Source: Eledone cirrhosa (Eukaryota). From it: 64,000 nucleotides of DNA. Positions 31,365 through 54,221 of the stretch are shown piece after piece; the first letter of the stretch is position 1, and the number at the start of each line of letters is the position of its first letter. The translations under genes were made by a program, and so were the position numbers. The notes beneath the pieces were generated by a model that worked only from the letters and a program-made list of their open reading frames with translations, did no database searches and was not told the DNA's origin. The stretch is from positions 372,372,001 through 372,436,000 of the forward strand of contig OZ024741.1 in the NCBI GenBank assembly GCA_964016885.1. Reading direction: 5' to 3'.

Positions 31365-31550
31365 AACGAAGGTGGACCATAACGCACCAGAGTATTCAAT
31401 ACTTAGGGTAGTAGAGCTGGAAATAGGAAAAAGTATGACCCCGACGGCAGAGCTCAAGCCGTTTCGACGGCTATTTCTGGACTCGTCTATGTCCAGAAAT
31501 AGCCGTCGAAACGGCTTGAGCTCTGCCGTCGGGGTCATACTTTTTCCTAT
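31365..31550 (-). mobile_element. Fold-back family A copy with perfect 60-bp arms
   Basis: 31423-31482 is the exact reverse complement of 31491-31550 (8-nt loop); tail shared with 12471; (TA)n on both sides. Confidence 0.9.
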
Positions 31551-31566
31551 ATATATATATATATAG

Positions 31567-31990
31567 TACTGGCTGGGTGTCCGTAAAGGTAGTAGTGGGG
31601 TTCCGACATGGAAATACTGGGTTTGATGCGCGAGCGCGCGGTAAGCTCACCGGGAGCGAGAGACCTCTAGTTCTTGACATTATTCTAGAGAGAAAACTCT
31701 GATATAAAAACTGCCACCTGATGGCAGCCAATGATATTGACCTGTTCTTTTGGAAACCTGTAACCGTTGTTCAGAGAGTAAGATTAGTCCAGTGTAAGGC
31801 CTTTCTACCCTTAAAATAATGTCAAGCACAGGCTTCACTGGATCTGAATAACTTTCACGTGTGTTGCGTGTGCATGGAATTTCAATATTTTTTTGTTTTT
31901 TGTCTTTTGCTGAAGCCTATGCAGAAAGGAATCTAAGTCCTTGGCAGGGCTAAAAATCATGTTCGTGCCAGCCAGGCTTGAGAAAAAGGT
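31567..31990 (+). mobile_element. Diverged non-autonomous element containing the RTE 5'-UTR domain
   Basis: 31650-31835 aligns by eye with 1550-1745 and 62828-63030 (tctag.aga..aaaactc.ga.a.aa, caatgat.ttgac, cagagagt, gcacaggc). Confidence 0.65.
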
Positions 31991-32994
31991 AACATACATA
32001 CATACAGGCGCCTGTAGGCGTATGAGAGTGTATATATGTGTGCGCACATGTGTCTGTCTGTGTGTACGTCTATGGGCTGTATGTATGCACGGATGTATGC
32101 AGGTATGTACACCTAAACGTGTACAAGAGTGCCCGTAAGGACATATATACACACACACCACGCACAATTGCGAGTGTCTGTAATTATATATGTGTGTGCG
32201 TGTGTGTCTATGTCCATGTGTGTGTACATATGTATATATGGGTGCATATATGTGTGTGTGTGTGTGTGTGTGTGTGTGTATAGATATACACTTAGGCTTG
32301 GATGTGTGCCTGTGTACGCGCGGGTATATGTATGTGTGTGTATATATATGTATATGTGCGGGTCCGTGTATATGTCTGTCAATGTGTATGCATGTACATA
32401 TGTATGAGGGTGTGAATATATGTATGTGTACGTGTATGCGCACGCGTGTGCGCGTACGTGCTGGTGTGTGTGTACATGTCCGCACAAATGCATGTGTGAT
32501 CATGAGCTCACAGTGTCTGTGAGTACACGTATATGTGGGTGGGTGTATGTCGAGGTACGTGCAAACTAGGGACAGGCAAGGCAGATCAGAACCCCCTGCC
32601 CACGTAGCAGTAATTCTGGCGACAGAGTTAAGGTGAGTGACAGCTCACGCCTGAATGGAAATAGACAGTGGGCAGTTTTGAATGGTCAAACATACAGATG
32701 ACGACTCGAACTCTTGACCAATGGATGGGCCGCGTAAACAGGATGATGACGGATGGAGGAAATTCAAAAGGACGGAATACATCAGACAGAAGATTTGCTT
32801 CGAAGTCGCTAGACGTATCTGAGGAACTTGCGAATCCAGAGTCAGGTCGATCCACAAATAGATCGGACCTCGAGCTGTTCGCCGGAGAAACAATACTAAT
32901 ACGTTAATAAATTGTGTTTCAATGCATCGCTGATTCTTCGTTTTCCATATTACATACATAGAAATAGTCGGGCTGGACACTCGATCGTCGGTAT

Positions 32995-33465
32995 ACATAT
33001 ATGTATGTACGTGTACATACTTATATTTAAGTAACAGCCGTACTAAGAGTGATAAATGAAATTTCGTTTCATCTTTTCCGTTTATCGTTTTCGGTGCGCC
33101 CGGCCGATTAACTCACTCAATATGCAAATTAGGCTGCTCAGCCGTTAATATGCATAAGGAAAGTATATACTTTCAGACGTTCAATCATCTGGCAGGGAGG
33201 TATACGGTGCTGACGATAGCTAATAAGCTTGAAACTAGTACATCGTTCCTTTGTCAGTGTTTGTCAGTGTTGAACAAAAGGGCAACGATGGTTGCTAAAC
33301 ACTGTACGGCTTAATTCGGGATGTTTATTTACAAACACAACGAGCATTATAATAAATGTTCGGTAATCCATACGTACATATATATATGTGTGCATGTATG
33401 TATATATATATACATACTACTGTACGTCTGTATACATATATGTATGTACGTATACATACTTATCT
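32995..33465 (+). mobile_element. Hammerhead retrozyme-like element, family D (about 1.07 monomers)
   Basis: Terminal direct repeat acatatatgtatgtacgt.tacatacttat at 32995 and 33434 (period 439). Hammerhead at 33204-33246. Confidence 0.85.
33204..33246 (+). ncRNA. Minimal type I hammerhead ribozyme (family D)
   Basis: acggtg-CTGACGA-t-agct-aata-agct-t-GAAA-ctag-TA-catcgt. Confidence 0.85.
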
Positions 33466-50728: not shown

Positions 50729-52143
50729 ACCTCCACCACCACCACTACCATCACCACCTCCACCACCACTACCATCACCACCTCCACCACCACTACCATC
50801 ACCACCTCCACCACCACTACCATCACCACCACCACCACCACTACCATCACCACCTCCACCACCACTACCATCACCGCCACCGCAACCACCACCACTACAA
50901 CTACCACAACCGCCGCCACTACCATCACCACCTCCACCACCACTACCATCACCGCCACCGCAACCACCACCACTACAACTACCACAACCGCCGACACCAC
51001 CATCACCACCACCACCAACAACACCATCATTATTACCATCAGCACCACAATCGCCACTACCGCATCCACCACCACTACTACCACAGCCACCACAACCACC
51101 ATTACCACCACCACCACCACCACCACCACCACAACCACCACTACCACTACCACCTAACCCACCACCACCTCTGCCACCGCCATTACTACCACTACTACCA
51201 TTACCACGTCATCCACCAACGCTACCTCCACCACCTCCACTACCACCACTACCACTACCACTACTACCACCACCACCACCACAACAACAACAAGACTCAC
51301 CACTACCGCTATCACTATCACCACTACCACCACCACCGCCATAACCACCACAACCACCACTACCACCACAACAACAACAACAAGACTCACCACTACCGCT
51401 ATCACTATCACCACTACCACCACCACCGCCATAACCACCACAACCACCACTACCACAACCACTGATGGTTGTGGTGGCGATAGTGATGGTGATGGTGGTG
51501 ATGTTATTGTTGTTGATAGTGATGGTGATGGTGATGGTGGTGGTGATGGTGGTGGTGATGGTGGTGGTGTTGGTGGCGATAGTGGTGGTGATGGTGGTGG
51601 GTAATGTGGTGTGATCGTGGTGGTTGAGGTAGTGTTGGTGGTGTTGGCAGCGATGGAGGTAGCGTTGATGCGTGACGTGGTAGTGGTGGTGGTGGTGGTG
51701 GTGGTAATGGGGGTGTTGGTGGTGTTGGTAGTGGTGGAGTTAGCGTTGGTGGGTGACTTGCTAGTGGTGGTGGTGGTGGTGGTGGTGGTGGTGGTGGTGG
51801 TAATGGGGGTGTTGGTGGTGTTGGTAGTGGTGGAGTTAGCGTTGGTGGGTGACTTGCTAGTGGTGGTGGTGGTGGTGGTGGTGGTGGTAATGGGGGTGTT
51901 GGTGGTGTTGGTAGTGGTGGAGTTAGCGTTGGTGGGTGACTTGCTAGTGGTGGTGGTGGTGGTGGTGGTGGTAATGGGGGTGTTGGTGGTGTTGGTAGTG
52001 GTGGAGTTAGCGTTGGTGGGTGACTTGCTAGTGGTGGTGGTGGTGGTGGTAATGGGGGTGTTAGTGGTGTTGGTAGTGGTGGAGGTAGCGTTGGTGGGTG
52101 ACGTGGTAGTGGTGGCGACAGTGGTGGTGGTGGTGTTGTGGTG
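50729..52143. repeat. (ACC)n-rich tract followed by an inverted (GGT)n-rich minisatellite
   Basis: Strand composition flips at about 51463; explains the poly-T/H/V ORFs. Confidence 0.9.
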
Positions 52144-53047
52144 ATTCAGTCTATTAAGTATCAGTTGAAATTATAAATGACCACTTACAGGTTTCTAGAT
52201 TTCACTTGGAAGTTATTTATTATATTGGAGAGAGACTTACGGAGTATAATCGCCGTCATTAGCACCTGCTATGTTCTCTCTCACACTCTCTCTTTCACTA
52301 CCTCTCACTCTCTCTCACACTCTCTCTCACACACACACTCTCTCGCACTACCTCTCACTCTCACTCTCTCTCTCTCTTCCCTTCTCTCACTTTCTCTTTC
52401 TCCCCCCCCCCTATCTATTTCGGTTTCTGTGATTTTTTTTATTTGTATAGATACATACTAACAAACAAACAAACACACACACACACACACACACACACAC
52501 ACACACACACACACACACACACACACACACACACATATATATATATATATATATATGTATACAAATAAACATATACATATGCATATATATATATCGTATT
52601 ATATTATATTTTTATATATATATATATTTATAGATATTATATATATATATATATATTCTATACCAAGCATTGAAATCAAACACATACTCAAGTACACAAG
52701 TGTCTGTGATATAAAGATTGTTTAAGCAGAATATCATGAAAATAAATACCTTTTATATGTATATATATATATATATATATATATATATATATATATATAT
52801 ATATATATATATATATATATATATATATATATATATATATATATATATAATATATATATATATATATATATATATATATATATATATATATATATATATA
52901 AATATATATATAAATATATATATATATATATATATATATATATATATATATATATATATATATATACACATATATATATATATATATATTAAAACACACC
53001 CATGTACACGCACACACACACACACACTTATACATACATACATACAT

Positions 53048-53653
53048 GGTGGCTGCCAACTCGTTTTCGAGTACGGCCACTACTTTATATCTATGTAGGA
53101 GAACCCCTGACGATGCGCTGAACGAGTGTGACTTTTTAGTCCAGCCAGCGACTTGAAAACTCTGGTACAAACACTACACTTGTGACAATTATTGACACAC
53201 AGTGCTGGGCCCATGGTACCATGTGACGACAAGTGCAGAGAGATCTCCAGATATAAAGCAATGCCTGTGCCGTGAAGCTTTTATAGTGAGCAAAGGCACT
53301 GCACAAAGCCAGTCCCACTCTCTTAACCATGATGATATTTACCAAAAAGAAGAACAAGTCAACATCATTGGATACCATCAGAGTTGCAGATGTTATATCA
53401 GAGTTTTCCTTCTCCTAGAATTCTGCCTTGACAAAGGCTAAGGGGTCATCTCTCCCGGTGATTTTGGATGGCCATTGACTCTTAAGAGCTCCTTTGCCCT
53501 TTGACAGGTTTTGTTTTTAGTCCTGCAGGATGTCCAAAGTTACCCTCCTCACCAAGAAACCTTGGTGGGGTTGCCAGTTTAGTCGCCAACGACCCGACCA
53601 TGAGACAGGTTGTACTGGGATACATGTTACCAGTAGCACCAACTGGTGACCTG
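53048..53653 (-). mobile_element. 606-bp non-autonomous RTE-derived element in (ACAT)n
   Basis: Near-identical to 62635-63240; contains the domain shared with the RTE 5' UTR at 1550-1745. Confidence 0.85.
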
Positions 53654-54018
53654 ACATACATACATACATACATACATACATACATGCTTATATATACGTC
53701 TCGGGTTCGATCCTACTTAATAGCATCCTGGACAAGTGTCATTTACCAGGAGCAATTTGTTCCGGCTAGGCCAGTATTGGAACAACTCCTCCATTATACA
53801 GTGGTGGCCATAACTGGACGACGAAACATAAGGTTAAGTGTATGAAATTTTGATTATACTAAATAAGGTCTGTTGCAATAGATTGAGCATTGTTTTCTTT
53901 GGCTTTTTATTTACGGATGTCCTGCATATATACACACATAGGTATATATATATATATATATATATATATATATATATATATATATATATATATATATATA
54001 TATATATATGTGTGTGTG

Positions 54019-54221
54019 TAGGAACGAGTAGGACCCCGACGGCTGAGCTCAAGCCTTTTCGACGGCTAATTCTGGACTCTAATGTCCAGAATTAGCCGTC
54101 GAAACGGCTTGAGCTCAGCCGTCGGGGTCCTACTCGTTCCTATTACCCACTCTACTACCCTAAGTATTGAGTACTTTGGTGTGTTATGGTCCACCTGGTT
54201 CCTTACCACATTTCCTTCGTT
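54019..54221 (+). mobile_element. Fold-back family A copy with 59-bp arms
   Basis: 54019-54077 pairs with 54084-54142 (one mismatch), followed by the shared tail and (TA)n. Confidence 0.9.

What the first reader, a model, noticed from the sequence alone, without database searches (positions are those of the whole stretch)
31423..54142. Fold-back turn-around points coincide with ribozyme landmarks
Seen: family A contains the 3' half of a hammerhead, gtc-GAAA-cggc-ttgagctc(t/a)-gccg-TC-ggggtc. Two diverged copies (31423-31550 and 54019-54142) invert at the same spot (ctggac-loop-gtccag), about 17 nt upstream of GAAA, where the stem II loop should be. A third copy (centre about 40952, gatccc|ggggtc) inverts right after the predicted GUC cleavage site. 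In family D the inverted arm ending at 50060 starts within about 2 nt of the GUA cleavage site. Established: Penelope-like elements often integrate with inverted 5' segments. Inference: inversions arise by cDNA snap-back on stem II or by RT run-off at the ribozyme-generated 5' end, so the palindromes record in vivo cleavage.
Basis: partly seen in the sequence, partly recalled or inferred. Interest (0 to 1): 0.75.

Follow-up and report, generated by a model that had tools for sequence, protein, structure and literature searches.

The report
Palindromes record retrotransposon RNA 5' ends
Over ten thousand tiny mirror-image copies of a Penelope-type jumping gene in this animal genome turn around at two fixed points, most at a likely capped transcription start and about one in a hundred exactly at the predicted cut of its self-cleaving RNA, so the genome likely preserves a record of where the element's RNAs began, including a rare trace that the ribozyme cut in living cells.

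Summary
Family A is a Penelope-like element with Hydra-clade motifs. Its copies are two head-to-head arms with fixed outer ends (+20 and +100 from the GUC site). About 12,000 exact fold-backs in three subfamilies turn 36-45 nt upstream of the cut. They stop on a conserved TTAGTY word, drop the native stem II loop and often carry a non-native G:C pair (522 vs 79). This fits reverse transcriptase run-off at a capped start site, not stem II snap-back. A minor class (142 sites) turns at the GUC cut, with non-native spacers in 22 of 50 listed sites against 1 of 50 in a control, which fits run-off at a ribozyme-made end. Uninverted copies lack CTGANGA (0 of 82) and carry a U3-A8 variant core, mostly C3.A8 in the largest subfamily; the cut class does not track the core. 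The family D claim is not supported. No RNA run was available. The scan had noted two-armed Penelope footprints and the U3-A8 core on other DNA of this genome; my look-ups showed no note of the two 5'-end classes.

The parts
31364..31483 (-). Family A (subfamily A2) copy 1, long arm: from position -41 (A of AGTCC) through GAAA, stem III, GUC and the tail, into (TA)n
31484..31490 (.). Copy 1 junction spacer, non-native; base 31484 is the extra G (minus strand) directly 5' of the -41 end
31491..31550 (+). Copy 1 short arm, -40 to +20; GAAA 31508, predicted cut 31530|31531, ends at TTCC|TA in (TA)n
54019..54078 (-). Family A (subfamily A1) copy 2, short arm, -41 to +20
54079..54083 (.). Copy 2 junction spacer, non-native; base 54079 is the extra G (minus strand) 5' of the -41 end
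54084..54222 (+). Copy 2 long arm, -40 to +100; GAAA 54101, predicted cut 54123|54124, 80-nt tail
40851..40952 (-). Family A (A3-type) copy 3, long arm starting at the predicted GUC cut (+1)
40953..40971 (+). Copy 3 short arm, +1 to about +19
12474..12548 (+). Family A tail-only fragment in (TA)n, starts near +26, no inversion
49710..50060 (-). Family D inverted arm; inner end about -2 from the GUA cut if two mismatches are accepted
50061..50434 (+). Family D sense arm from unit position about +333 to the +273 end; minimal hammerhead core at 50127, predicted cut after 50157
45007..45799 (.). Family D two-armed insert (arms 45007-45354 minus, about 45350-45799 plus); cores at 45309 (-) and 45562 (+); junction far from either cut
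32986..33463 (+). Family D, 1.1 units, not inverted; core at 33210
58647..59015 (+). Family D single arm; core at 58768

Best explanation
Family A palindromes are two head-to-head arms of a Penelope-like element with fixed outer ends at +20 and +100, likely made as two separately primed cDNAs that each ran off the 5' end of the RNA template, which was likely a capped transcription start at -41 in most cases and likely the hammerhead cut at +1 in about one case in a hundred. SHOWN: element identity, arm geometry, the two turn points, the conserved TTAGTY word at -43..-38, the non-native G:C pair at -41 and A/T spacers at +1, loss of the native loop. INFERRED: the endonuclease cuts both strands of (TA)n; each end primes reverse transcription at one of two internal sites; on a transcript that starts inside the pseudo-LTR these sites lie only 60 and 140 nt from the 5' end, so both cDNAs run off at once; a C is added opposite the cap; the two 3' ends are joined bluntly, through added bases or through 1-4 nt microhomology. 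The inferred start lies inside stem II, downstream of the catalytic core, so the 5' copy of the ribozyme on the mRNA would be unable to cut in cis. RNAs cut at GUC (read-through, tandem or trans-cleaved) would give the minor class. Family D is a roughly 420-nt non-coding retrozyme-like unit with the same two-ended footprint but scattered inner ends.
For: Long copies join the hammerhead and tail to an RT plus C-terminal endonuclease ORF with RWR, DKT, CxCx5C and CKH motifs as listed for Hydra. 109 of 119 head-to-head pairs have one +20 and one tail arm; the short arm reaches at least 4 nt further 5' in 31, the tail arm in 31, within 3 nt in 47; long inserts are strongly asymmetric. Two RT start sites bounding the tail, both-strand cutting of AT-rich DNA and product length set by the template 5' end were shown in vitro for Poseidon. 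Counts 7125/3959/931 at -41, 3 upstream. TYAGTY in 75 of 84 long copies of three subfamilies whose stem II loops differ. When both arms end at -41 with one base between, it is C/G in 522 and A/T in 79 although A/T is the native base; at +1 the listed sites give 5 C/G and 10 A/T (Fisher p=4e-6). An extra G marks capped full-length L1 ends. At the cut, hand tally of the 50 listed of 83 A1 sites: 22 have both arms at +1 with a non-native spacer, 7 are flush, 14 have one arm at +1 and the other within 2 nt, 7 are ambiguous; in the -21..-27 control only 1 of 50 listed sites has a non-native spacer. 15 of 15 fetched +1 inserts have the full two-armed (TA)n architecture. Position 7 of the core varies G/C/T among subfamilies while UGA..AA, G10.1-C11.1, GAAA and GUC stay; U3-A8 is a described PLE variant.
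Against: No RNA 5' end was observed; both ends are inferred from DNA. After arms ending at -41, G (3139) is as common as C (3005, CG excluded; T 650), so C is not the only non-native base; I attribute many G to partner arms starting at -40 or -35 but did not count them. The single C/G base has no strand polarity. The cut class is not more numerous than the internal control window (130 for A1+A2 vs 369); only its junction form differs. The cut/start ratio is the same in A1 (83/7125), A2 (47/3959) and A3 (12/931) (p=0.93 and 0.75), although 42 of 52 A1 cores have a C3.A8 mismatch and A2/A3 mostly pair U3-A8; cleavage would be expected to track the core. In A2 only 15 of 47 cut-class sites have both arms at +1 (hand tally). 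No DPE-like word at +28..+32 of the inferred start (read from sequence; consensus recalled). A few A2 junctions keep native loop bases (L287, L290, L298). The hammerhead fold is 1-6 kcal/mol less stable than the free fold in all 6 copies folded. Frangieh et al. saw no RNA-seq reads at the Poseidon cut and no need for cleavage in vitro. Pfam gave no family for the ORF.
Confidence: 0.68

Rival explanations
1. One reading: one cDNA copies past the stem II apex, folds back on the stem and copies itself, so the turn point marks the stem II loop.
For: The native apex (-52..-45 in A1) is close to the turn point. A few A2 junctions keep loop bases. cDNA snap-back after full-length synthesis is documented for R2 and self-priming was proposed for Penelope palindromes.
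Against: By eye none of the 50 listed A1 junctions keeps the whole native loop. Only 1 of 53 unselected arms ends at -60..-48. In 31 of 109 pairs the short arm has 5' sequence the tail arm lacks. The turn point stays at -41 in A3, whose loop is different and further away. The second arm always stops at +20.
Confidence: 0.07
2. The +1 class is a reverse transcriptase stall at the foot of the stem III hairpin or in the G run, not a cleaved RNA end.
For: The class does not depend on U3-A8 pairing. A 6-7 bp hairpin ends at -2. It is rarer than the control window.
Against: Ends fall at +1, not at -1 where the last unpaired base lies, and are followed by non-native bases (A 32, T 19, C 5 by hand tally), as expected at a template end. 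Single arms also start at exactly +1 (L109 twice, L012, L283).
Confidence: 0.22
3. The mini-palindromes spread as their own non-autonomous units, or their tips were remodelled after insertion, so the turn points are inherited from a few founders.
For: Minis outnumber ORF copies by orders of magnitude (depth steps). Arms often share private variants. One +5..+18 haplotype group occurs in 6 of 19 unselected minis and not among the ten commonest long haplotypes (long sample biased).
Against: Junction sequences are highly diverse in each of three subfamilies. Non-inverted copies and single arms in asymmetric inserts end at the same base. The commonest mini haplotypes match long-copy haplotypes. 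If minis are re-transcribed from the same start word they would still record it.
Confidence: 0.12
4. The -41 end is a processed RNA end (nuclease cut in stem II, or a splice acceptor at TTTAG) rather than a transcription start.
For: TTTAG resembles an acceptor; G follows -41 as often as C; no DPE-like word.
Against: Most arms keep the AG and show no shared upstream exon. The single-base spacer is C/G 522 to 79, unlike the +1 end. TTAGTY is kept where the surrounding stem has diverged.
Confidence: 0.1

Closest known systems
Hydra-clade C-terminal EN+ Penelope-like elements (Craig et al. 2021, PMC8557442; passages and section 11 read, supplement not read)
   Same: RT then endonuclease in one ORF; DKT, CxCx5C, CxxC and CxH motifs; (TA)n targets; pseudo-LTR, tail and inverted 5' copy.
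   Different: Core is YUGA-N-AA, not canonical; RWR instead of RWK; unit about 3.5 kb; 80-nt tail; over 12,000 mini-palindromes with mapped turn points, not described in the parts read.
Poseidon element of Anolis in vitro (Frangieh et al. 2024, PMC11167929; parts 1-2 of 4 read)
   Same: Two internal RT start sites bounding the tail, both-strand cutting of AT-rich DNA, product ending at the template 5' end, hammerhead just upstream of the start sites.
   Different: That study found cleavage dispensable in vitro and no RNA-seq reads at the cut; here a DNA class ends at the cut. It did not address inverted junctions.
U3-A8 hammerhead variant of Schistosoma Cercyon PLEs (Cervera and de la Pena 2014, PMC4209133; parts 1-2 of 4 read)
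   Same: Type I motif in the pseudo-LTR with U3-A8 covariation, G10.1-C11.1, palindromic loop III.
   Different: Here stem III is 5-6 bp and stem II about 60 nt; the largest subfamily has C3.A8.
Drosophila virilis Penelope internal promoter (Schostak et al. 2008, PMC2377424; passages read)
   Same: Transcription starts inside the pseudo-LTR at an initiator.
   Different: There the start is 46 nt upstream of an intron and a DPE is present; here the inferred start lies inside the ribozyme and no DPE-like word was seen.
L1 twin priming and cap-derived extra G (PMC11702581; passages read)
   Same: Both DNA ends prime; an extra G marks a capped full-length 5' end.
   Different: L1 arms abut without overlap and the second primer anneals by microhomology at variable sites; here both arms start at fixed internal sites and overlap, giving palindromes.
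Metazoan non-LTR retrozymes (Li et al. 2026, bioRxiv 10.64898/2026.07.22.740005, part 1 of 5 read; PMC7229834 search listing only)
   Same: Family D: about 420-nt tandem non-coding unit with one minimal type I hammerhead.
   Different: Family D shows fixed ends at +217 and +273 and scattered inner ends; no peak at its cut.

Membership tests
Hydra-clade PLE (family A) | Single ORF, RT followed by C-terminal GIY-YIG-type endonuclease | tested here: met
   RT motif and AYIG segment in one frame order in L103, L085, L095; by motif only, Pfam 0 families
Hydra-clade PLE (family A) | DKT, CxCx5C linker, CxxC and CxH around the E and N, RWK | tested here: met
   DKT, CNCPDGSIC, CKH, CNLC-EE in L084; RWR in place of RWK
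Hydra-clade PLE (family A) | Insertion in (TA)n | tested here: met
Hydra-clade PLE (family A) | Canonical CUGANGA hammerhead | tested here: not met
   0 of 82 uninverted cores; a variant core is present. I therefore call it Hydra-like by motifs.
Hydra-clade PLE (family A) | Placement in the Hydra clade on an RT tree | not tested
   Reference proteins are in a supplement that I listed but did not read
Type I hammerhead, U3-A8 variant (family A) | U3 U4 G5 A6 N7 A8 A9, G10.1-C11.1, GAAA, NUH | tested here: met
   A3 18 of 18 and A2 9 of 12 start with U3 and have A8; A1 only 5 of 52, with 42 C3.A8 (subfamily sorting automatic)
Type I hammerhead, U3-A8 variant (family A) | Three stems can form around the core | tested here: met
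   Constrained folds -21.9 to -28.7 kcal/mol, 1-6 above the free fold, 6 of 6 copies
Type I hammerhead, U3-A8 variant (family A) | Self-cleavage at GUC | not testable with these tools
   Indirect only: the +1 junction class
Internal Pol II promoter (Inr type) at -41 | Initiator-like word with A at +1 | tested here: met
   TYAGTY in 75 of 84 long copies; the Drosophila consensus is recalled, not taken from a call
Internal Pol II promoter (Inr type) at -41 | Downstream promoter element at +28..+32 | tested here: not met
   Read by eye against a recalled consensus; a DPE is not required of all initiator promoters
Internal Pol II promoter (Inr type) at -41 | Capped RNA 5' ends at that base | not testable with these tools
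   Indirect only: C/G 522 vs A/T 79
Non-LTR retrozyme (family D) | Short non-coding tandem unit with one type I hammerhead per unit | tested here: met
   About 420-nt spacing of cores in L145-L147, L150
Non-LTR retrozyme (family D) | Circular RNA and self-cleavage | not testable with these tools
   No RNA data for family D were sought

The most novel reading that the evidence does not exclude
Penelope-type insertions are a germline 5'-end sequencing experiment written into DNA: this family's promoter starts inside its own hammerhead, disarming the ribozyme on the mRNA's 5' copy, while about 1% of templates were cleaved at GUC in vivo, even in a subfamily whose core is mispaired, which would imply cleavage in trans by sister elements or tolerance of C3.A8.
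Probability: 0.4. Interest if true: 0.8.

Novelty: new variant of a known kind. Interest (0 to 1): 0.62.

Why it matters
How Penelope-like elements make their inverted ends, and whether their hammerheads ever cut in vivo, are stated as open in the papers read. The junction census gives base-exact, testable positions for a start site and a cut, argues for two cDNAs over self-priming, and offers a way to map start sites and ribozyme activity of such elements from assemblies alone. It also suggests how an element keeps a self-cleaving RNA near its mRNA 5' end without decapping itself. My eight library searches returned nothing reporting these two end classes; subscription papers and supplements were not covered.

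Tried and rejected
Rfam scan of the window gave no hammerhead among the 150 of 371 rows shown. A tail-only search of the genome found nothing because common words are skipped. No RNA holder was listed, so expression and 5' ends were not tested. Laying four contig sets from one study showed depth steps and loose ends at +20 and +100 but no usable junction table. Pfam and PDB gave nothing for the ORF. An exact-extension script for arm ends was too fragile and was dropped; mis-aligned A3 arms to a copy with a private insertion and was redone; one search's haplotype part had a length error and was redone; one search ended in an error after its useful output. My early local test of the extra G (6 of 8 vs 5 of 47) looked stronger than the genome-wide count, so I rely instead. 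Family D enrichment at the cut was rejected: 2 symmetric fold-backs; 64 vs 49 at a control position (p=0.19), and only 9 of 25 inspected were true junctions (the control sites were not inspected); 2 of about 80 segment ends within 2 nt of the cut (hand count after dropping microsatellite-only and edge rows; 30 of the loci were selected to span -3..+120). A one-base deletion reading of the A1 core was dropped when A2 and A3 showed position 7 varying. An assembly artefact was rejected because arms have two different fixed outer ends and thousands of distinct junctions. Lunse et al. on PLE hammerhead variants was not held.
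Full report
Coordinates. Positions are given relative to the predicted cut of family A: +1 is the first base after GUC, the G of GAAA is -23 and the A of AGTCC is -41. The window lies on contig C2 of a 3.0-Gb animal genome; earlier scan notes call it an octopus, which I did not test.

Observation. Each is asymmetric: one arm stops at +20 (TTCC then TA repeats), the other carries a further 80-nt tail to +100. 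In copies 1 and 2 the arms end at -41 and -40 with a short non-native spacer, and in both the base next to the -41 end is a G in element sense. Copy 3 turns between the two +1 positions.

What family A is. Searches with the arm and its upstream sequence returned over a thousand candidates each. Long copies run from a reverse transcriptase and C-terminal endonuclease ORF through about 1.4 kb of untranslated sequence to the hammerhead and tail, and the tail runs on into the ORF in tandem copies. The protein has RWR, DKT, CxCx5C, CxxC and CxH motifs, matching the Hydra clade description. Pfam and PDB gave nothing and no tree was built, so it is Hydra-like by motifs.

The ribozyme. They read TTGATAA (A3, 17 of 18), TTGACAA (A2, 7 of 12) or CTGAGAA (A1, 42 of 52; TTGAGAA 5), then G pairing with the C before GAAA. 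This is the U3-A8 variant described for Schistosoma PLEs, with position 7 free; A1 mostly has a C3.A8 mismatch. All six copies folded accept a hammerhead, 1-6 kcal/mol above their free fold. Activity is untested.

The main turn point. In 1.104 Mb taken without selection, 29 of 53 arms end at -47..-35, 10 at -34..-6, 2 at -5..+5, 7 further 3', 1 at -60..-48 and 4 further 5'. Exact whole-genome counts of symmetric fold-backs there are 7125, 3959 and 931 for A1, A2 and A3, against 3 at a control near -125.

Why not snap-back on stem II. A cDNA must pass the apex (-52..-45 in A1) to fold on the stem, and the product would keep the loop. By eye none of the 50 listed A1 junctions keeps it whole; a few A2 copies keep part. 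Of 119 head-to-head pairs, 109 have one +20 and one tail arm; in 31 the short arm reaches at least 4 nt further 5' than the tail arm, and long inserts differ by hundreds of bases. Each arm then holds sequence the other lacks, which needs two cDNAs. Purified Poseidon protein cuts both strands of AT-rich DNA, starts at two internal sites that bound the tail, and makes products whose length follows the template 5' end. Self-priming was proposed earlier for such palindromes and is documented for R2; it may explain a small share.

Why a transcription start. The word at -43..-38 is TYAGTY in 75 of 84 long copies, kept across subfamilies whose stem II interiors differ; it resembles the Drosophila initiator (recalled), and Penelope has an internal promoter in its pseudo-LTR. 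Where both arms end at -41 with one base between, that base is C/G in 522 cases and A/T in 79, though A/T is native; at +1 the listed sites give 5 and 10 (p=4e-6). An extra G marks capped L1 ends. Against this: over all arms ending at -41 the next base is G as often as C (3139 vs 3005, T 650), I saw no DPE-like word, and no RNA end was observed. The inferred start lies 3' of the catalytic core, so the mRNA's 5' ribozyme copy would be incomplete.

The minor class at the cut. Symmetric fold-backs with both arms reaching +2 number 83, 47 and 12, about 1.2% of the main class (pattern widths differ, 12 vs 18). By hand, of the 50 listed A1 sites 22 have both arms at +1 with a non-native spacer, 7 are flush, 14 have one arm at +1 and the other within 2 nt, and 7 are ambiguous. 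The base after a +1 arm is A 32, T 19, C 5. In A2, 15 of 47 have both arms at +1. A control window at -21..-27 holds more fold-backs (369), but they sit on native self-complementary words and only 1 of the 50 listed has a non-native spacer. All 15 fetched +1 inserts have the full architecture. A defined template end with added A's at the predicted scissile bond is the simplest reading. The weak point is that the ratio is the same in A1, A2 and A3 despite their different cores; trans cleavage, tolerance of C3.A8 or a stall at the stem III foot are the options.

Family D. It is a roughly 420-nt tandem non-coding unit with an intact minimal hammerhead and fixed outer ends at +217 and +273. Inner ends are scattered: 2 of about 80 lie within 2 nt of the cut (hand count), 2 symmetric fold-backs exist genome-wide, and non-native bases before +1 are no commoner than at a control (64 vs 49, p=0.19), with 16 of 25 inspected being merely mutated. 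The arm at 50060 has two mismatches near its end. It is best treated as coincidence.

Comparison and novelty. Inverted 5' copies, tails, internal promoters and hammerheads of PLEs are known. Earlier scan notes on other DNA of this genome report the two-armed footprint, a 420-nt retrozyme and a Hydra-clade U3-A8 core; they agree with what I found, and one claims both arms come from one RNA, which I did not test. Look-ups by sequence and by words showed no note on start-site or cap signatures. My library searches found no report of these end classes; the Craig et al. supplement (listed, unread) and bioRxiv supplements may bear on family identity.

Verdict. Real feature, reinterpreted: run-off at RNA 5' ends, mainly a likely capped start (about 0.75) and secondarily a likely ribozyme cut (about 0.7), joined from two cDNAs (about 0.85). 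Interest 0.62; new variant of a known kind.

Noticed in passing
window 34532-34865; c4 stretch, L102, L134, L043, L023, L263: Another (TA)n fold-back family; several copies start or turn within a few bases of one point, a possible second start-site peak without an obvious hammerhead.
   Followed up: partly
window 57930-58350 and 6378-6585: 424-bp palindrome family; uninverted longer copies exist; turn points not counted.
   Followed up: partly
window 57595-57668, 43294-43471, 4480-4916: Further small fold-backs; 43294-43471 has a (TA)n core and was seen once.
   Followed up: no
window 34934-35039 (-): U6 snRNA copy, 95 bits, abutting a short repeat and (TA)n; likely a retrocopy.
   Followed up: no
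window 17365-29777: 1.44-kb units, several 100% identical over 1.3 kb: very young tandem repeat or assembly duplication.
   Followed up: no
window about 54330-55300 (+): Broken RT ORF of another Penelope-type element (DVVSLYT, YLDD) directly after copy 2.
   Followed up: no
window 54092-54123: AGCCGTC occurs twice; the first copy can pair with the stem III 5' strand and hide GAAA, an alternative fold found in 2 of 6 free folds, and the repeat causes 23-nt deletions (L036).
   Followed up: partly
L351, L352: Both arms of one family D insert carry the same short insertion at the ribozyme cut, as if the RNA had been cut and rejoined with extra bases.
   Followed up: no
L126, L271, L263: Family A copies fused directly to family D or to other A subfamilies: nested insertion in (TA)n or template switching.
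   Followed up: no
window 52922-53694 and 62594-63366: 773-bp dispersed repeat, 92% alike, with CTGACGA at 53107; no convincing hammerhead by eye.
   Followed up: no
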